This document shows positions 6,126-44,249 of a stretch of DNA of 64,000 nt, piece by piece (within the stretch, counting starts at the first letter, position 1; the number at the start of each line of letters is the position of its first letter). The notes beneath the pieces were generated by a model that worked only from the letters and a program-made list of their open reading frames with translations, did not search any database and was not told where the DNA came from. The stretch comes from Chrysomallon squamiferum (taxonomy: Eukaryota; Animalia; Mollusca). The position numbers and the translations under genes are program-made. The stretch lies in the NCBI GenBank assembly GCA_012295275.1, contig CM022671.1, forward strand, positions 35,278,001 through 35,342,000, read 5' to 3'.

Positions 6126-7774
6126 GTGAAATTAACAAAAAGAAGAAAAATAACAACAAAATTGAACAAAATTATAACACTTGTTTTAACTCTTCAGAAG
6201 TTTAAAGTAAAATATTCATAGCAAAACACAAAAATTCAGCAAGAAATATAAATTTATTAATAAGGGAAATCCCCTTCAAAAAAAAAACCTTTCAACATTG
6301 CAAATTAGGCACACTATTGGAATAATTCATGAAATTCAGAAAACCAATTGAAAATAATGAACAAAGATTTTGCAAGAATATTGCAAATTATATAAGATAT
6401 TCAGCAAAAATATAGAAAATAATGTGAAAAAGAAATCAGCAAAAAATATTGCAAATAATAAAAAAAAAAATTACCAATAACATGAAAGAAATTCAACAAT
6501 AACATTGTAAATAAGTTTTAAAAATAAAAAAAAAAAAAAGAAGAAAATAGCAGCGACAGAATGCTAGTGCTTGTTTGGAGAAGTTGAGAAAACTTTGACA
6601 AAGTGAGAGAGAGAGAGAGAAACACATGTTCCACAAATACACGCGGAATCTGTGTTGTCAGATTGACTGTGGACTGTAGGATTCCCAGTCTTACGCTCTG
6701 CAGTTCCTCCTGTGAGCCACCTCTCCTTTGAGAAAGCAGAGCTGTTTAACCAAGACTTAGAGATGTGAAGAACCAGACATATGGATGGTAACAGCTGGAC
6801 ACACAGGTACAGACAAACAGACAGTCTTACATGACAGCGTTAGATGACTATCTCTGTTTAGATGGCGATGTGTTTTGCATATTCGTGTGTAGATTACAAA
6901 AGTTAATGCACTGTTTTGTTTGATGTGTTAAAAGTCACTTTTTATTGATTTATGAATCGTTGTGTTAGGTTTGTTTATTAATTTAAACATCAAGTTGTCT
7001 TTCTTTTGTGTGCTGTTTAAAACTTGCCATTATATTTCTGAGAACGAGGATTCGAAGTGTTTCAGAGTGTTCAATGAAGCATGAGTCGTGTGGTAATCCA
7101 GGCATGGAGTTTTGTCGAAGATCTTTAAATTGGCATGACTGTGAACTTTAACCTTCGTGCAGTGACAGTACATGTGTAATGAGCAGTTTTATTTTCTGCT
7201 ATTGTGAGGAGTACGAGCAGACTGTAAAATACTCATTGTTGTAACTGTTGATGTGTTTCACAGATAGACCCTTCTCAGTGCTTTTAATAATGTACACACA
7301 ACCATCAGTGGAAAGTGTTGTTAGTGGAAAAACAGCTGAAAAGATGTAAAACATAACTTATGTAATGTTTAACATGAAGAAAAAAAACTTCATTTATTTT
7401 CTTAAACAATCTCACCTGATGAAAGCCAAAGGGGTTTTTGTTTTTTATGTTGTTGTTTTTTTAAAATTCTGAAACAGTTCATATATTTTTGACAAATGAT
7501 GAATGATAATTGATTATTTAATGTAGTTTATTGAAAAGCCAGATGTCTCTTTTCAGCAAGTGATTTAGTGGATTAAGTCATAGTTTTTAAATAAATAAAT
7601 ATATAAAAACAACAAGAACAATTTCAAAGAAAATAATACAAAAGTTAGAGAAAAGAAAACTTAAGACTAAAGATAAGCAAAAAATAATATCAATAGCAAT
7701 AATAAAATTTATCAGTGAAGAAGATTTTAATAAAATAAAAAAAAATCTATGTTTAAGGTAAATGATAAGATTTA

Positions 7775-8218
7775 ATGATGGCATCAATTGTACCATCACG
7801 AAGATTCTCAGGCAGTCGGTACAGAGATGAGTATGAACTTGAGTTCAGCGACTTGAGTCCGAGTCGGGCTTCCAGTCCGGCCAGTGCCAGGTCCGAGGGT
7901 CCGCGGATTCGCCACAACCCGAAAGTGGATGAGTATCGCAGAAAGATTGCGAGACTGAAGAGTGAGTTAGAACTGGAGAAATCTAAAAGCAAACACGTGC
8001 TGAAAGAGAAGTCGAAAGAGCTGAAACATTTACGTTCTCAGCACGACGAGGACAAGAAAAGCGAACTCCAGTCCATCGAGGAACGACTGAAAGAACGAAT
8101 GAAGAAGGACGTGATTCGAATGAGAGAAGAGCTGATAAAGGAGAAGGACGCGGAGCTGCAGCAGGTGCTGAAGTACAAGGAGGACGAGATTGAGCAGCTC
8201 AAGTCCAGACTGTCGCAG
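7775..8218 (+). CDS. RIMBP2: RIMS-binding protein family gene, first coding exon, 5' part (N-terminal coiled coil)
   Basis: GC-rich, purine-rich ORF MMASIVPSRR...KIARLKSELELEK...ELIKEKDAELQQVLKYKEDEIEQLKSRLSQ. The EKDAELQQVLKYKEDE motif resembles, from recall, the RIMBP3/JAKMIP-type N-terminal coiled coil. The frame stops at TGA 8306, but coding-like sequence continues in the -1 frame. The symbol denotes the family; orthology is untested. Confidence 0.75.
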
Positions 8219-8898
8219 AGAACAGAAAACACAGGAGGAAACCAGATGACGAGAAACACCTGGCAAAAGAAAACGGAACCAATTCGCCAGAAGGTGAAAA
8301 ACACCTGAAAGGTGATTCGAAGGAAAGTGGAACCAGTGAAAGAAGTGGCGAAGCGGAGAAAAGCAAAGGTTCAATTCGGTTCAGGGACATGGACATTTTC
8401 AGAAAAATGGAAGAGGAGATTCAGAATCTGAAGGACGAGAACGTTCAGTGGGAGGAGAAGTACAGGAGGAAGTGTAAGGAGGAGGTTGCCAGGCAGGAGG
8501 AGCTGAACAAGGTGAAGGCCGGGTATGATGCTGAGGTGAGGAGAGTGATCAGTGAGTCAAAGAAGCTGGCTCTGGGAAACCTGAAAAAACTGAAAAGAGC
8601 AGAAATAGCTCTCAGTGAGAGTTTCTTTTCCGAGGACGAAAGTGTGACGTGTTCGTTGACATCAACACCAGCATCAGTATGCAGCAACATCGTCACAACA
8701 ACCACAATGTCCGACTCGTCACATCGCACAACACCATCTGAGGGTGTCGAGAGAATGTTGCCACAGCTGCCGATGGAGGATGGTTGTAGCAGGTCTGTGT
8801 CTGTTGTTGATGATGTAGCAATGAGCAGAAGAAGCAGCATCACGTCACTGGCTCGTCTGTTTACAGGTGACCACAGTGAAACAACACCTGGTGAACAG
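8218..8898 (+). CDS. RIMBP2: RIMS-binding protein family gene, first coding exon, 3' part (after -1 frameshift)
   Basis: Frame open from 8194 (ENRKHRRKPDDEKHL...RDMDIFRKMEEEIQNLKDENVQWEEKY...TTPGEQ). It ends at a consensus donor CAG|GTGAGT (GT 8899-8900), phase 0, compatible with the phase-0 acceptor at 39221. Confidence 0.75.
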
Positions 8899-9854
8899 GT
8901 GAGTAGTTGTTGTTATTAGTAACATCATCATCATCATCATCATCATCAACATTGTTGTCTTATGTTACTTTTATCATTGTAGTTCCTAATATTTGTTATG
9001 TTATTATATTTCTGGATGTAGCAAAATGAACAAATTGACATACCAGCAATATCTACATATAGAATGTGTATATTTATATACACATATATACATGGCAACA
9101 CACACACACACACACACACACAAAAACAAACACTCATTCCCATATTTACTACCAAGTGCATAATACCTATCTTCATACATACATACAGACATAAATAAAA
9201 ACACACAAAAAAAAGCTTACACAAAAATAAATATACTCAAATGTTTGTACTCACTGAAACATCAACATACAAACAAAATAAACTCAATTAGAAACAGACA
9301 AAAAAAAAAAAAAAATCCAAACATAAACAAATATATATATATATATTTTGCAGAAGAATAAACAGACACAGACACACAAATGCACACACATACACACATT
9401 AATTTTAATTAATTTTAAGTTAGTATATATTTAAGAATGGCTGGATATATTAAAACCCATATCATTTTTTTTAAAGTTGTTATAGTTGTGCATTATATAA
9501 TGTGAGTCAGTGAGTGCAGATAACAACAAAGGTGTAGTTTATAATGTGCACACGAAAACCTTTGTAGATACCTCACTTACGTTACTTTGAGGCCTGCCAT
9601 GCTAATTGTTCAGTCTGTTTAGGTCGTGTGTAAGTTTAACGCTTGATAACAAATAGTGGCATGTGTTGCCAAGTTGATTCTGATAACCCAGAGAGTGGGG
9701 CAGAGTTACTCACATACTCACCTGGGTGAAGAATGGCATGCAGAGAATAAGATTTTGAAAAGTTTGTCTAAAATTAAATGTATATGTGTGTGTGTGTGTA
9801 CACACCCACATACATACACACACACACACATTTAATCTGAGACAAACATATTAC

Positions 9855-21109: not shown

Positions 21110-21214
21110 ATGGATGTTCTGTTAGAGCGGAATCCTAGGCCCCTGCAGGAGTACTTGGAGGAGCAGGAGGAGCAGAGGGAGTCTGAGCGAAGACCTCACA
21201 GTTTCTTCTTACAG
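21110..21214 (+). CDS. Candidate alternative first coding exon of the RIMBP gene (35 aa)
   Basis: GC-rich island in AT-rich intron. ATG 21110 follows an in-frame TAA (21080); MDVLLERNPRPLQEYLEEQEEQRESERRPHSFFLQ; donor CAG|GTAACC, phase 0. Confidence 0.6.
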
Positions 21215-29764: not shown

Positions 29765-32594
29765 GGGTCATTCCGTGTCAAATCACCCAATGGTTTAAAC
29801 CCGACCGTCTCAGATTTTTATGAAACTTGGTATACTTGTTGACTGGGATCCCACAGCACCAAATCTGAAATATTAGCCCAATCAGACCAGTGGTGTGGGA
29901 GATACGGCCCACGGAATTTTGAGATTTTTGCCAAAAATGGGTGTGACCACCAACCTTAGAACCCTCATATCTCAGGAACTACTGGGCCAATCTTCATAAA
30001 ATTGGTATTGTTAGAAAGGCAAAATGACAAGGATACCAAATCTGCCATTTTTGTTTAGTTTGGAAAATATTGGAGTACCTTGACCTTTTGACCTTTGCTA
30101 TGACCTTGAAATTGACCGTGTGGATCACGTGATCTTGAGATGACCTTTATTGAAATTTAATCTCCCACATGTTAACTAAAACATATAAAAGTTTCCTGGG
30201 TGTAATATTTTTTGTTTAGCCACAATATAGATTTAAAAAATGCACATACATGAAAATAACACATTTTCAGCCATTAACATCTGATTGACTAAAACCTGAA
30301 TGATCAATTCTGGATGCTAGGAATCACCATCTCTCTTGATCATTGAGTAAGACATTGTAGGCCTACATGTATGCATAAAGTTCACATATAAAAGTTTCCT
30401 GGGTATAATATTTTTTGTTTAGCCATAATAGAGATTTAAAAAAATGCATACCTGCATGGATGATTGATACAATGCATTACAATGTACATTTTCTCTGAGA
30501 CTAAAAACTCATCTTTGGAGTTAAAACCCACCTGACATGTCTGAAGGAATGCCTGAAGGATATGAAAAGATGCCAAATGGCATGGCATGTTCTACACAAT
30601 CAGGCTCAAAGGGTTAACAGGCAGGTCAGGAACTCCTTTAGATTCCCTGGTGCAATCCCCATTGAGCACATTGCAATTAGAAGTTTAAGACAAAGAAGTT
30701 TCTTCATCTGCATTTCTTTGACAATCTGAAGCATTTTAAGTTGGACACAATGTCAGATGTTGATATATAAACAATATTTTTATTTCATAAAACCTATTAA
30801 GTAATTTTATCATGTCATGTGGGCCTTGCCATTGGTTTTGAACAAGGTTTCAGTCAACATTAGTACAACCCAGTCTGAAATCAGACGTCATCAAGTGATG
30901 TACTGCATAATGTATTTGTATACCCAGTCTTCGGCACAGACTATGAACAAGGTCTACTTCACCTTAATAAACTGTGATTTATATTTGAGAAGATTGACAT
31001 AAATGCCCAAGACTTGTGGGCCTTTGGCAAAAACACATGTACTCTGCTGCCATTTTATGACCTGCTTAACTTTACTGAAAGGGTTTCAGGATTTGATTTA
31101 ATATTTAGGAAAGCACTGACTTTGTTCTATTGAATTGAAGGTGCAGGCCAATACCGAAAATCCTTATTTCTTCCAGGGCTAACTGCAGCTTTAACTCTCC
31201 TGAAAATGTGTGTTATCAACACCATCATATCAAAAAAGGAGTTTGTGTGAAGTGTATGGAAAACTGAGGAAATCGAACTCCTCACTCTTTGAAGTGGGAT
31301 CAAAACACTGGACATCAAGAGTATCATGAACAAGAACTTTTCATCAAATTTTCAACATTGCAGAAAAACTGTTGTGATCCCCTTAATCGCCCACCCTGCA
31401 CTAGATCTTTAAGAATTGTTAGCATGGGCACTTACAAATGCTTAGTAAATCCTCCAAAGACACTAGTGCCAGGAGACAAGTGGTGCTGTGACTGTCTGAT
31501 TACCCTTCAGAAATCAAAGGTCCTGCAGAGGATGGCTTTAGTATGGGTGGTATTACAATGGGAGAATTTGGTGATAACTTGCCAGACAAACTGCTGGTTG
31601 TTGTTTCCCCAGAAAAGGACTTTGATTTGAATTCTATTCTGTTGAGTTTAGGCGAAACTCCTGTCAAACTCCATTCACTAGCACATTCCAGTAAATGAAT
31701 GAAAGTACAGAAAAAAACTAACATCAGCTACAGTAACATTAAAATGACATCTTAATGCCTGAATCCTACCCAGAGCATGTGCAAATCTTGATTTTGTCAC
31801 CCTTTACCATTGAAAGGACAATGAATTGAAGGAGGAAATTATCCAATTTTATGAAAGTGATGAGAACAGTAGAATGTGTCTGGGAATGAAGGATACAGTG
31901 AGCATTTGAAACGAACATAGTGAGAAGGTTAAGCATCAGAAACACCTAGTTCTCTCAAATTTATGTGAATTTTATGCATACATGTAGGCTTACAATGTCT
32001 TACTTGATGATCAAGAAAGATGGTGATCCCTAGCATCCAGAATTGATCATTCAGGTTTTAGTCAATCAGATGTTAATGGCTGAAAACGTGTTATTTTCAT
32101 GTATGTGCATTTTTTAAATCTATATTGTGGCTAAACAAAAAATATTACACCCAGGAAACTTTTATATGTTTTAGTTAACATGTGGGAGATTAAATTTCAA
32201 TAAAGGTCATCTCAAGATCATGTGATCCACACGGTCAATTTCAAGGTCATAGCAAAGGTCAAAAGGTCAAGGTACTCCAATATTTTCCAAACTAAACAAA
32301 AATGGCAGATTTGGAATCCTTGTCATTTTGCCTTTCTAACAATACCAATTTTATGAAGATTGGCCCAGTAGTTCCTGAGATATGAGGGTTCTAAGGTTGG
32401 TGGTCACACCTATTTTTGGCAAAAATCTCAAAATTCCGTGGGCCGTATCTCCCACACCACTTGTCTGATTGGGCTAACATTTCAGATTTGGTGCTGTGGG
32501 ATCCCAGTCAACAAGTATACCAAGTTTTATAAAAATCTGAGACGGTCGGGTTTAAATTTCTTTTTTTTTTGGGTGATTTGACACGGAATGACCC
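29765..32594 (+). mobile_element. Non-autonomous Sola2-type DNA transposon (2830 bp)
   Basis: Termini GGGTCATTCCGTGTCAAATCACCCA...GGGTGATTTGACACGGAATGACCC; 4-bp TSD ATAA (29761-29764 and 32595-32598); long, highly similar TIRs (~29765-30388 and ~31962-32594). GRG/CYC termini, a 4-bp TSD and the internal transposase remnants fit Sola2. Confidence 0.88.
31289..31987 (+). pseudogene. Decayed N-terminal half of a Sola2-like transposase
   Basis: Fragments in shifting frames: EYHEQELFIKFSTLQKNCCDPLNR..RSLRIVS..LVPGDKWCCDC (Cys/His-rich N-terminus), LNSILLSLGETPVKL, and EIIQFYESDENSRMCLGMKDTVSI*NEHSEKVKHQKHLVLSNLCEFY (recalled Sola2 motif FY..DE.SR..PGKKD.VS...QKRL.L.NL.ELY). Stops and frameshifts present; no DDD catalytic region seen. 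Confidence 0.8.
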
Positions 32595-39220: not shown

Positions 39221-39340
39221 ACGAAACAAGAAGAGAGAGAGAAAGAAAGACAACTGCAGAAGAAGATAACAGAGTACCAGACACAGATACAGCGACTGGA
39301 GCGAAGAATCAATTTACTCAGAACTGAAAATGAGTCTTTG
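39221..39340 (+). CDS. RIMBP2: RIMBP coiled-coil exon (40 aa)
   Basis: Acceptor TTTCAG|, donor TTG|GTGAGT, 120 nt, phase 0/0: TKQEEREKERQLQKKITEYQTQIQRLERRINLLRTENESL. Confidence 0.9.
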
Positions 39341-40294: not shown

Positions 40295-40757
40295 ACTCAG
40301 TTATTGAAGTCTGAGTTTTTGAGTTAACTCACATCAACTCACAGTTATTGAAGTCTGTGTTTTTGAGTTAACTTTAACAGTTATTGAAGTCTGTGTTTTT
40401 GAGTTAACTCACATCAACTCACAGTTATTGAAGTCTGTGTTTTTGAGTTAACTTTTAACAGTTATTGAAGTCTGTGTTTTTGAGTTAACTTTTAACAGTT
40501 ATTGAAGTCTGTGTTTTTGAGTTAACTTTTAACAGTTATTGAAGTCTTGTGTTTTTGAGTTAACTTTTAACAGTTATTGAAGTCTGTGTTTTTGAGTTAA
40601 CTCACATCAACTCACAGTTATTGAAGTCTGTGTTTTTGAGTTAACTTTAACAGTTATTGAAGTCTGTGTTTTTGAGTTAACTCACATCAACTCACAGTTA
40701 TTGAAGTCTGTGTTTTTGAGTTAACTTTTAACAGTTATTGAAGTCTGTGTTTTTTTC
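40295..40757 (+). repeat. Two-variant (36-38/44 bp) minisatellite abutting the 40762 acceptor
   Basis: 12 copies of the core CAGTTATTGAAGTCTGTGTTTTT(GAGTTAACT) with linkers CACATCAACTCA or TT(T)AA. Spacings are 44,36,44,37,37,37,38,44,36,44,37. Confidence 0.95.
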
Positions 40758-40761
40758 TCAG

Positions 40762-40893
40762 CGACGACAGAAAGATGATCAGAAGCCGCTGGAAGAGAAG
40801 ATAAAATCTCTGAAGAAGAGAAATGCGGAACTGGCAGCCATTGCCAGGCGACTGGAAGAAAAAACCAAATCTTTACAGCAAGAAAACTTGAAG
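40762..40893 (+). CDS. RIMBP2: RIMBP coiled-coil exon (44 aa)
   Basis: Acceptor TTTTTTCTCAG|, donor AAG|GTGACA, 132 nt: RRQKDDQKPLEEKIKSLKKRNAELAAIARRLEEKTKSLQQENLK. Matches the recalled RIMBP-family motif KRNAELAVIAKRLEERARKLQETNL. Confidence 0.92.
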
Positions 40894-42060: not shown

Positions 42061-42246
42061 AGGAACAAGGAAGATGGAGGTCAGGAATCAGAACACCTCA
42101 AGAGACTGTTTGCTCGACAGAGAGCCAAAGATTTGGCAGAACATGCCAAAAACATGCTGGCCAAAGATCGGGAAATTGAAGATCTTCGTAAAAAGTGCCA
42201 GGAACTGGCCAGTCAACTTAGCAATGGAGAATTCTATGCCCCAGAG
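42061..42246 (+). CDS. RIMBP2: RIMBP coiled-coil exon (62 aa)
   Basis: Acceptor ACACAG|, donor GAG|GTAAAT, 186 nt: RNKEDGGQESEHLKRLFARQRAKDLAEHAKNMLAKDREIEDLRKKCQELASQLSNGEFYAPE. Matches the recalled RIMBP3 motif ARQRARDLSETASALLAKDKQIAALQRECREL. Confidence 0.92.
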
Positions 42247-42381
42247 GTAAATCTTTTAAATTTGAAATCTTTTTGTAATGTATATTGTTAGTTTTATATT
42301 CATTAAGGAGATAGCATGTCTGAATTGTGAATATTTTTTTATTTATTGTTGTTGTTATTGTTATTGTTATTGTTATTAAAC

Positions 42382-42382
<1 letters not shown>

Positions 42383-42418
<36 letters not shown>

Positions 42419-42466
42419 CATTAAAATTACTTTTATAATTGTTATTGTTACGATTACAACTGCTAC

Positions 42467-42514
<48 letters not shown>

Positions 42515-42562
42515 CATTAAAATTACTTTTATAATTGTTATTGTTACGATTACAACTGCTAC

Positions 42563-42607
<45 letters not shown>
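42383..42607 (+). repeat. (ATT)n blocks with a duplicated ~50-bp unique spacer
   Basis: ATCATTAAAATTACTTTTATAATTGTTATTGTTACGATTACAACTGCTACT occurs twice, 96 bp apart. Confidence 0.85.
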
Positions 42608-42608
<1 letters not shown>

Positions 42609-42861
42609 AATTTCCATATATTTCATTATGTATCTGTGCATGTATGTAGATTTCTATTTCTATTTTGCTAAAAAGAATGGATGGATGAATTCATGTAAAA
42701 TAGAAAATAAATAATTCCTATAATATGTACACCAATAAGATTAGCCCATAATGTGACTGCACCAGGATAGTTTATTTGTGTCAGGGGGAGGATGTGAGTA
42801 TGGGTGTGGGTGTATGTATTATCCTCACCATTCATGACTAATGTAAACTGTTTGTGTTGAT

Positions 42862-43231
42862 CTGTTTGTTTGTTTATTCAGAATGTACAGGTGTATGAGG
42901 AGAAAGAGGAGCTGGTGACTATAACTGTTTGTTTGTTTGTTCAGAATGTACAGGTGTATGAGGAGAAAGAGGAGCTGGTGACTATAACTGTTTGTTTGTT
43001 TGTTCAGAATGTACAGGTGTATGAGGAGAAAGAGGAGCTGGTGACTATAACTGTTTGTTTGTTTATTCAGAATGTACAGGTGTATTAGGAGAAAGAGGAG
43101 CTGGTGACTATAACTGTTTATTCAGAATGTACAGGTGTATGAGGAGAAGGAGGAGCTGGTGACTATAACTGTTTGTTTGTTTATTCAGAATGTACAGGTG
43201 TATGAGGAGAAGGAGGAGCTGGTGACTATAA
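42862..43231 (+). repeat. Six-copy 63-bp tandem repeat spanning an intron/exon boundary
   Basis: Unit = CTGTTTGTTTGTTTATTCAG (20 nt of intron end) + AATGTACAGGTGTATGAGGAGAAAGAGGAGCTGGTGACTATAA (43 nt of exon start). Exon-part starts at 42882, 42945, 43008, 43071, 43126 and 43189. Confidence 0.97.
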
Positions 43232-43296
43232 TAAAACAAGCAGCCAAAGAACGGCTACAGCTTGAGAGACAACTCACTAGAGGCAAGCCAGTGGAG
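43189..43296 (+). CDS. RIMBP2: RIMBP exon (36 aa); acceptor is the last of six tandem copies
   Basis: Acceptor TTTATTCAG|, donor GAG|GTAAGT, 108 nt, phase 0/0: NVQVYEEKEELVTIIKQAAKERLQLERQLTRGKPVE. Confidence 0.85.
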
Positions 43297-44249
43297 GTAA
43301 GTCAGTCTCAATTATTTTAGAAGTGTCAGTTGTCTCCCTTGACCTTTTTGCGTGAGAAATATAATTTTTATTTATTTATTTGTTCCTTTAAATTTGTTAT
43401 TGTTGTTTGTTGTTGTTTTTTTTTGTGTTTTTTTGTAGATAATTTATTTTAATTTTGTTTTATTATTATATATTTGTTTTCTTCTTTTAAAATTACAGGT
43501 TTAATTTAAATTATTTAGTACTTTTCTCAGTAGTTACTTGTTATCTTTTTATCTTATTAAAAACAAGTTTCAGTCCTTCATCTCTCCATCGTGTCACTGT
43601 CAGAGATTATTATGAAACAATGGCAACATAAAATATACTCAGCATTCTAATTCCTGATAACACTGTCATATATAGAAATTTTAAAATAACATTTACTTAC
43701 AATTGAATCAGACAAAACCAGTTGTAAATTCTTCAAAATGTTCTGAGAAAATGTTGAGATGCAGAAGTGTTGGAAGATTTCTCCCATTTATCAAACAGTT
43801 TTGTGTATTTCCATTCTTTCACATTTTTCCTCTGTCCTATTTTCCTTCTTTCTTTTTCTTCCTTTCGTTTTCTTCTTTTTTCTTACAGTTTTACAATTAT
43901 TTTTTCCTTTCTTTTATTTTTTCTAATTTTAGTATCCTACTTTTTTCTTTACTACTACTAATAATAATACTAATACTATTACTATTACTGTTATTATTAT
44001 ATTTTATACTGTTCATTTATTATTTTATTAAGGTACCAGAAATTCTCTAAACAACATATCTTAAGTTAAATTTTGGATGCAGTATATTAATCAATGTCTC
44101 CTGACCAGATGTAACCAAATGTTAATTAAGTTGTTGGGAGTATTTGTTGTTTTGTGCTGTGAATTAAATTTTACAACTCTGAGGATTTAAAAAAAATATA
44201 TATATATATATTTTTAAATTTTGAAAAAAAATGAAGTTGTTTATTTATT

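What the first reader, a model, noticed from the sequence alone, without database searches (positions are those of the whole stretch)
42862..43296. Six-fold tandem duplication of a splice acceptor with an internal CAG|GT: possible intron birth in progress
Seen: the 63-bp unit copies the last 20 intron nt and first 43 exon nt, and each copy contains AATGTACAG|GTGTAT. Using acceptor 1 (42882), the GT at 42891 and the CAG at 43195-43197 of copy 6 would remove a new 307-nt GT-AG intron. That leaves a 9-nt micro-exon (NVQ) and restores the ancestral protein exactly. Joining instead to acceptor 43189 gives an in-frame NVQNVQ. Established: this is the geometry of the tandem-duplication (AGGT proto-splice site) model of intron gain, which is rarely caught in action. 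Copies carry diagnostic variants (TTATTCAG vs TTGTTCAG, AAA vs AAG, one TAG, one 8-bp deletion), which argues against simple assembly stutter. Actual splicing use is inference.
Basis: partly seen in the sequence, partly recalled or inferred. Interest (0 to 1): 0.85.

Follow-up and report, generated by a model that had tools for sequence, protein, structure and literature searches.

The report
Repeated splice acceptor in snail gene
The boundary where an intron ends and an exon begins in a snail synapse gene (RIM-binding protein) is copied six times in a row, the repeat is real and appears to vary in length between animals, and the mature message is normal, most likely because the cell splices straight to the last copy, as known for "mirage" repeats in lancelets, rather than because a new intron is being born.

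Summary
The geometry is as described. The array is real: the head-to-tail junction is in 4 of 4 DNA-like runs laid, from three studies. Rough depth ratios suggest about 4 to 7 copies, with different unit variants between samples. The gene is a gastropod RIM-binding protein. In 3 of 3 RNA runs laid, the main contig joins 42246 to 43189 with a single NVQ. That product cannot separate direct splicing from the proposed micro-exon plus 307-nt intron, because both give identical letters. Points against the new intron: the CAG|GT is an old Gln-Val codon pair, also inside the single-copy exon of a distant animal. About a quarter of 43-nt exon stretches hold AGGT. The donor is weak at +4/+5. Exact repair needs a CAG that sits 9 nt behind a stronger acceptor. 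This is a 'mirage' minisatellite, described in amphioxus, where the intron-gain idea was already proposed (PMC3087553); human CBS 844ins68 is the two-copy analogue. The scan has found such arrays before on other genomes. One weak hint for the bolder reading: variants avoid unit positions +1 to +15.

The parts
42061..42246 (+). Upstream RIM-BP coding exon (part of RIMB1_N, PF25566), phase-0 donor GAG|GTAAAT at 42246
   Evidence: Pfam E 2.6e-15; 89% to a Gigantopelta aegis RIM-BP2-like protein; in spliced contigs of X7 and X9
42247..43188 (+). Intron as removed in the main mRNA (942 nt, GT..AG); it contains copies 1-5 and the intron part of copy 6
   Evidence: Joint 42244->43187 (cut +2), GT..AG, depth 129 and 21.9; X6 loose end
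42836..42861 (+). Unique intron just upstream of the array, with the best branch-point-like motifs (CTAAT, A at -41; TTGAT, A at -22 from acceptor 1); these were not duplicated
   Evidence: Motif scan; function inferred
42862..42924 (+). Copy 1: original intron end, acceptor 42882, 43 exon-derived nt
42925..42987 (+). Copy 2 (G at intron -6, AAA)
42988..43050 (+). Copy 3 (G at intron -6, AAA)
43051..43113 (+). Copy 4 (in-frame TAG at 43086-43088; not seen in the rows shown for four DNA-like runs)
43114..43168 (+). Copy 5 (8-bp shorter intron part, AAG); its 3' end supplies the branch-point-like TGAC (A at -27) and TAAC (A at -21) ahead of acceptor 6
   Evidence: use as branch point inferred
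43169..43231 (+). Copy 6: 20 intron nt, the working acceptor at 43189, and the first 43 nt of the real exon
43189..43296 (+). Authentic 108-nt exon (NVQVYEEKEELVTIIKQAAKER...), donor GAG|GTAAGT
   Evidence: Spliced RNA contigs of X6, X7 and X9; matches mollusc homologues
42891..43197 (+). Hypothetical 307-nt 'new intron' (CAG|GTGTAT ... TACAG|); no evidence of use
   Evidence: Geometry only; donor scoring
42882..42914 (+).

Best explanation
This is a real minisatellite that copied the last 20 intron bases and first 43 exon bases of one RIM-BP exon six times and appears variable in copy number, and the spliceosome most likely joins the upstream exon directly to the last acceptor, so the five extra copies would simply be extra intron sequence. 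Shown: the array, its junction in several samples, unit variants, and a normal main mRNA. Inferred: (1) it arose by one tandem duplication across the 3' splice site and then changed copy number by slippage or unequal exchange. (2) Only the last acceptor is followed by a normal 108-nt exon with a strong donor (GAG|GTAAGT), so exon definition favours it. (3) The junction supplies branch-point-like motifs 21 and 27 nt ahead of acceptor 6, which would let it work without the original branch point. (4) In the window's haplotype, use of acceptors 1-4 would hit a stop and likely be degraded; acceptor 5 would add 21 residues in frame. It works like human CBS 844ins68 and the amphioxus 'mirages'.
For: Junction contigs in 4 of 4 DNA-like runs laid (X1, X2, X4, X5; studies P1, P2, P3). 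Leaving out X1 as a possible source of the assembly, three samples from three studies remain. Rough per-contig depth ratios: X1 3.5-4.3, X2 about 4.3, X4 about 7.4 copies, with X4 internally consistent (312.1+79.9 vs 393.8). Variants absent from the window: a 4-bp-shorter junction and a change at +29 in X5, and a unit differing at five exon positions plus a 2-nt-shorter junction in X7. Main RNA contig with a single NVQ in 3 of 3 RNA runs laid (X6, X7, X9). 59 of 65 homologues carry the exon, all with the same length at this place; 5 run into other sequence at the same boundary and 1 did not match. The AG|GT at +9 is also inside the unduplicated exon of distant animals (CAG|GTGTAT in L002, GAG|GTGTAT in L001). 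Internal donor has +4T/+5A, against +4A in 6 of 6 authentic donors; sites with 6 or more identities to the (recalled) donor consensus occur 4.2 per kb in the window. No UGC in the 30 nt before any acceptor; UGC is found at most, not all, SRRM3/4 micro-exons (10.1101/2024.09.17.613571, passages). The window has 8 complex minisatellites. Mirages reported not to disturb splicing (PMC3087553, PMC3902484); distal site favoured in CBS 844ins68 (PMC2630376, PMC7490669).
Against: The mature mRNA is letter-for-letter the same under direct and two-step splicing, so the RNA does not prove the direct route. Logan contigs drop rare forms, so minor NVQNVQ or cassette isoforms could be hidden. Array-derived contigs are present in RNA at 21% (X6) and 9% (X7) of the main contig's depth, summed over copies; they may be pre-mRNA or DNA, but could also be transcripts that use an upstream acceptor. 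One authentic donor of the gene (AAG|GTGACA) scores no better than the internal GT by simple consensus count. All 9 variant sites seen in the exon part lie at +16 or later, sparing the would-be micro-exon and its donor (post hoc P 0.02 to 0.18 depending on how events are counted). Copy 1 has the better branch-point motifs, so why the last acceptor wins is inferred, not shown. Depth ratios are rough; the tool warns that depth is not a copy number.
Confidence: 0.76

Rival explanations
1. Direct splicing dominates, but the array also yields minor, possibly neuron-regulated isoforms: NVQNVQ (9-nt micro-exon joined to acceptor 6), a 33-nt cassette NVQVYEEKEEL ending at CTG|GTGACT, or +21-residue read-through from acceptor 5. 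This would be an imprecise, partial intron gain like the potato RdRp case.
For: All three forms are in frame. Array-derived contigs exist in RNA of X6 and X7. The second donor-like site has +4A and resembles the authentic donor at 40893. RIM-BP is a presynaptic gene (established knowledge). Potato RdRp gained an intron by a duplication across an acceptor that activated a cryptic donor (PMC4974935, parts 1-2 of 5 read).
Against: No insertion, second joint or such loose end in three RNA runs. No homologue among 59 shows extra residues here. The X7 internal unit carries an in-frame stop after +15 (loose ends), which would kill the cassette and read-through forms in that animal. No UGC upstream.
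Confidence: 0.15
2. One reading: the main mRNA is made in two steps through a 9-nt exon and a new intron from an internal GT to the CAG at 43195-43197, so a precise intron gain is under way.
For: Exact restoration of the protein. The mature mRNA is compatible. Variants spare +1..+15, and in X7 the purine run after the GT has turned T-rich, as would suit an intron start. Ebner et al. proposed this route for mirages (PMC3087553, Fig. 7 legend).
Against: It needs TTCAG to be used in an upstream copy yet skipped in copy 6 for a CAG 9 nt downstream with a poorer pyrimidine run (9/17 vs 13/17). If the internal GT were the main route, NVQNVQ would be the expected product, and the main contigs have a single NVQ. 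The donor is weak, the CAG|GT is an ancestral codon pair, and AGGT is common in exon stretches of this size.
Confidence: 0.06
3. The array is an assembly artefact of a single-copy exon start.
For: The window has a probable 1-base slip near 8215. The TAG and the 8-bp loss were not seen in the rows shown for four DNA-like runs.
Against: The exon-to-intron junction stands at multi-copy depth in four runs of three studies, and in RNA contigs. The X2 pieces 42620-42891, 43119-43168, 43139-43179 and 43202-43400 match unitigs predicted from the window haplotype.
Confidence: 0.02

Closest known systems
Amphioxus 'mirage' minisatellites (Adh3, globins BflGb6/BflGb9, troponin C, PGBD5; PMC3087553 and PMC3902484, passages read; the original Adh3 paper known only through these)
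   Same: Head-to-tail copies of an intron 3' end plus exon 5' start; copy number differs between haplotypes (BflGb6: 6 and 3 units); unit variants; normal mRNA; the authentic exon is the last copy; the same intron-gain speculation was already made.
   Different: Here in a gastropod. The unit is 63 nt, a whole number of codons with no stop, and holds a CAG|GT at +9 that allows exact restoration without any new mutation.
Human CBS c.844_845ins68 (PMC2630376, PMC7490669, passages read)
   Same: Duplication of the last intron bases (52) and first exon bases (16); the distal splice site is favoured and the mRNA is normal.
   Different: Two copies only, a longer intronic part, and the direct use of the distal site was tested experimentally there (Romano 2002, known only through citations); not tested here.
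Potato RdRp intron gain by duplication across an acceptor (PMC4974935, parts 1-2 of 5 read)
   Same: Duplication crossing an intron-exon boundary, with a cryptic donor in the upstream copy and an inherited acceptor in the downstream copy.
   Different: There the donor was GTAAG, the new junction was supported by 106 RNA reads and the mRNA gained sequence. Here no such junction was seen and the donor is weak.
Rogers AGGT tandem-duplication model; ATP2A1 and fission-yeast 24-bp cases (PMC3443670 passages; PMC4974935 introduction)
   Same: A duplicated AG|GT could serve as donor in one copy and acceptor in another, leaving the protein unchanged.
   Different: The model duplicates an exonic segment, which forces the new intron to be used. 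Here the real acceptor is duplicated too, so direct splicing makes the new intron unnecessary, and both routes give one product.

Membership tests
'Mirage' minisatellite | Tandem repeat whose unit spans an intron-exon boundary | tested here: met
   20 intron + 43 exon nt, six copies
'Mirage' minisatellite | Real in the genome and unstable in length | tested here: met
   Junction in 4 of 4 DNA-like runs; rough ratios about 4 to 7.4 copies; different variants per sample. Copy numbers are depth inferences.
'Mirage' minisatellite | Main mRNA spliced normally | tested here: met
   Single-NVQ join 42246->43189 in X6, X7 and X9
'Mirage' minisatellite | Somatic instability (reported for Adh3) | not testable with these tools
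   Needs single-molecule reads from several tissues
Intron gain by tandem duplication (AGGT model) | Duplicated segment contains AG|GT | tested here: met
   CAG|GT at +9/+10 of each copy; also ancestral and common
Intron gain by tandem duplication (AGGT model) | Duplicated segment is exonic, so that a new intron is needed to restore the mRNA | tested here: not met
   The unit includes the true acceptor; direct splicing gives the same mRNA
Intron gain by tandem duplication (AGGT model) | The new GT and AG are used by the spliceosome | tested here: inconclusive
   No NVQNVQ form or second joint in three RNA runs, but contigs drop rare forms and the exact route is invisible in mature mRNA
Intron gain by tandem duplication (AGGT model) | Absent from sister lineages (clear phylogeny of gain) | tested here: inconclusive
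   Only distant loci found: L001 and L002 have a single acceptor at the same position. No sister-species DNA; proteins only.
Neural micro-exon (SRRM3/4, eMIC type) | UGC near the 3' splice site and a strong 5' splice site | tested here: not met
   No TGC within 30 nt of any acceptor; donor lacks +4A/+5G. UGC is not strictly required (10.1101/2024.09.17.613571, passages).
RIMS-binding protein gene | RIMB1_N coiled-coil domain and similarity to RIM-BP | tested here: met
   PF25566 in two exons; 65 hits, mostly named mollusc RIM-BP/TSPOAP1-like. The SH3/FN3 exons lie outside the window and were not tested.

The most novel reading that the evidence does not exclude
The array is turning into a new intron. 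Some transcripts use an upstream acceptor and the internal CAG|GT as a 9-nt exon, and selection keeps the first 15 bases of each copy intact while the rest loses its purine-rich enhancer, gains stops and, in one animal, a better branch point. Different snail populations would then hold different stages of one intron gain.
Probability: 0.1. Interest if true: 0.7.

Novelty: new member of a known kind. Interest (0 to 1): 0.27.

Why it matters
As most likely read, it is one more splice-site minisatellite. It extends 'mirages' to a gastropod (none was found for molluscs) and, unusually, comes with population and RNA data. It is a neat natural test of how the spliceosome chooses among identical acceptors, and of whether a branch point can be made from exon sequence at a duplication junction. 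If the internal GT were used, it would be a segregating, staged example of the intron-gain route proposed for mirages in 2010 (PMC3087553), in a presynaptic gene. The X7-type allele, with internal copies that differ from the last copy from +17 on, makes that directly testable with raw reads.

Tried and rejected
No whole genome is held for this window, so no genome-wide splice-site model or count of other mirages could be made. Donor strength is only a count against a recalled consensus. First translation used donor 42247, an off-by-one slip, corrected; three donor positions were off by one and were corrected. Of 20 runs listed, 7 were laid: X1, X2, X7, X9 and X4, X5, X6, X7; X3, X8 and X10-X20 were not. 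X10-X20 hold only small shares and are no evidence. X6 and X5 have no kind on record; I read X6 as RNA because its contig joins exons, and X5 as DNA because it holds only array contigs at high depth. The RNA runs show array contigs but no cover of the unique intron flanks; lack of cover in contigs proves nothing, so I do not use it. X7 and X9 mRNA have one other letter in the exon whose place the tool did not give; unresolved. The X7 diverged unit is in low-depth RNA contigs (3-12) and could come from another locus or another animal; not confirmed in DNA. The metagenome scan gave 11 distant loci (46-72% identity), none a sister species, and none with a tandem repeat of period 20 or more. Recursive splicing was rejected: joining 42246 to an acceptor gives AG|AATG, so no donor is rebuilt. 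A 33-nt exon rejoining copy 6 at +34 was rejected, as there is no AG there. Literature searches; I did not search for this gene in this species. Supplementary files were not read; the mirage alignments in the supplements of PMC3087553 may bear on how often mirage units hold an internal AG|GT.

Full report
Observation. The window holds six head-to-tail copies at 42862-43231 (period 63, score 649). Each has 20 intron bases ending in TTCAG and 43 exon bases; copy 5 lacks 8 intron bases. Acceptors lie at 42882, 42945, 43008, 43071, 43126 and 43189, and every copy has CAG|GTGTAT at +9/+10. With the donor at 42246 and the exon end at 43296, direct splicing to 43189 gives ...FYAPE-NVQVYEEKEELVTIIKQAAKER.... 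Any upstream acceptor, plus 9 bases, plus rejoining at 43198 gives exactly the same letters, and rejoining at 43189 gives NVQNVQ. Read-through from acceptors 1-4 meets the stop in copy 4; from acceptor 5 it adds 21 residues in frame.

The gene. Two upstream exons match RIMB1_N (PF25566). The best of 65 homologues is a Gigantopelta aegis RIMS-binding protein 2-like sequence at 89% over 62 residues, so the animal is a gastropod, probably a close relative of that vent snail (inference). Exons lie at about 7775-8898, 21110-21214 (alternative first exon), 39221-39340, 40762-40893, 42061-42246 and 43189-43296; the next exon was not found in the window. Of the 65 homologues, 59 carry this exon, all with the same length at its start; 5 run into other sequence at the same boundary and 1 did not match. 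The intron position is therefore old, and the ancestral acceptor is the TTCAG, not the CAG at +9.

Is the array real? Yes. Of 20 runs listed I laid 7. All four DNA-like runs (X1, X2, X4, X5; three studies) hold contigs with the exon-to-intron junction. X1 may be the source of the assembly; the others are different samples. Four X2 pieces match unitigs predicted from the window haplotype. Per-contig depth against the single-copy flank gives about 3.5-4.3 copies in X1, 4.3 in X2 and 7.4 in X4, where the branches add up (392 vs 393.8). These are rough inferences; X5 had no flank to scale by. X5 has a junction 4 bases shorter and a change at +29. X7 has low-depth RNA contigs of a unit that differs at +17, +18, +19, +26 and +28 (all purine to T, giving an in-frame stop) and a junction 2 bases shorter that reads as a consensus branch point. 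The window's TAG and 8-bp loss were not among the rows shown (109 and 1 rows hidden), so the exact six-copy haplotype is unconfirmed.

What does the RNA do? In X7 and X9 a 1461-nt contig (depth 129 and 21.9) joins 42246 to 43189 across 942 bases, GT..AG. In X6, a run with the same sample code as X1, a 2514-nt contig does the same with no other letter. No insertion and no second joint was listed. This shows a normal main mRNA with a single NVQ. It does not show the route, and contigs drop rare forms. Array-derived contigs are present in RNA at 21% (X6) and 9% (X7) of the main depth, summed over copies; they can be pre-mRNA, DNA, or transcripts using an upstream acceptor.

Is the internal GT special? 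No. It is the codon pair Gln-Val. The unduplicated orthologous exon of a distant animal has the same CAG|GTGTAT at +9 (L002), and another has GAG|GTGTAT (L001). AGGT occurs in 358 of 1353 43-base windows of this gene's other exons. The site has T at +4 and A at +5, whereas 6 of 6 authentic donors have A at +4; one authentic donor nevertheless scores lower by simple count, and sites of this grade occur 4.2 per kb (consensus recalled). The CAG at 43195-43197 has a poorer pyrimidine run (9/17) than the TTCAG 9 bases upstream (13/17). Exact restoration would need TTCAG to be used in one copy and skipped in copy 6, in the same local sequence. If the internal GT fired often, NVQNVQ would be the expected product, and it is not the main form. 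There is no UGC before any acceptor; UGC is found at most SRRM3/4-dependent micro-exons but is not strictly needed (10.1101/2024.09.17.613571, passages).

Mechanism. Most likely one duplication across the 3' splice site founded a minisatellite that has since changed length and diverged, in a genome rich in such arrays (8 complex ones in 64 kb). The best branch-point motifs stayed in front of copy 1, but each junction makes new ones 21 and 27 bases ahead of the next acceptor. Only the last acceptor opens a normal exon closed by a strong donor, so exon definition likely selects it, and copies 1-5 become intron. Steps after the existence of the array and of the normal mRNA are inferred.

Comparison. 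Tandem copies of an intron end plus exon start are the 'mirages' of amphioxus. They vary in length between haplotypes and do not disturb splicing, and the authors already drew the model of intron gain from them (PMC3087553, passages; PMC3902484, passage). Human CBS 844ins68 duplicates 52 intron and 16 exon bases, and the distal site is favoured (PMC7490669 and PMC2630376, passages; the latter calls the site a donor, the former the 3' splice site). The classical AGGT model concerns an exonic segment (PMC3443670, passages). The potato RdRp case is a real gain from a duplication across an acceptor, with a GTAAG donor and 106 junction reads (PMC4974935, parts 1-2 of 5). Cryptic-site intron formation in human minisatellites is reported too (PMC2812944, passages). 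I found no mollusc mirage. The lead to mirages came from earlier notes of this scan, which list similar arrays in other genomes, one with the same 9-nt geometry; I checked the papers myself.

What speaks for the bolder reading. All 9 variant sites seen in the exon part lie at +16 or later, and most turn the 15-purine run at +16..+30 towards T. The chance of sparing +1..+15 is 0.02 if every site counts, 0.12 if the X7 cluster is one event, and 0.18 without the unconfirmed TAG (post hoc). This fits selection to keep a micro-exon and donor. It fits equally the silencing of decoy exons, or one complex mutation, and the X7 unit is not confirmed in DNA.

Verdict. Real feature, new member of a known kind; intron birth not shown and unlikely as the main route (about 6%), with minor isoforms possible (about 15%). 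Interest 0.27.

Noticed in passing
window 40341-40754: A 37-bp minisatellite (10.6 copies) ends 7 bases before the acceptor of the exon at 40762 and repeats its branch-point-like TTAAC, but not the AG. So 2 of 8 complex arrays touch one of 4 internal acceptors of this gene; chance 0.007 by random placement (post hoc).
   Followed up: partly
window about 8215: The large 5' RIM-BP exon changes frame here (frame of 7769-8305 to frame of 8194-8916); probably a one-base assembly slip, not checked in reads.
   Followed up: partly
window 21110-21214: Alternative first coding exon whose translation matches the N-terminus of the Gigantopelta isoform P0001, so the gene likely has two promoters.
   Followed up: partly
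window 43297-64000: The next RIM-BP exon, seen in RNA loose ends, was not found in the rest of the window, implying an intron of more than 20 kb or a break in the assembly.
   Followed up: no
window 29781-29996 and 32372-32578: Two near-identical stretches of about 200 bp in opposite orientation, about 2.4 kb apart (same translation on opposite strands); possibly the ends or copies of a DNA element.
   Followed up: no
window 42382-42607: A perfect 96-bp unit (2.4 copies) built around a TTA microsatellite in the same intron.
   Followed up: no
runs X6 vs X7/X9, exon 43189-43296 and next exon: The mRNA of study P2 differs from that of P1 by one letter in the next exon, and from the window by one unplaced letter in this exon, suggesting distinct populations or alleles.
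   Followed up: no
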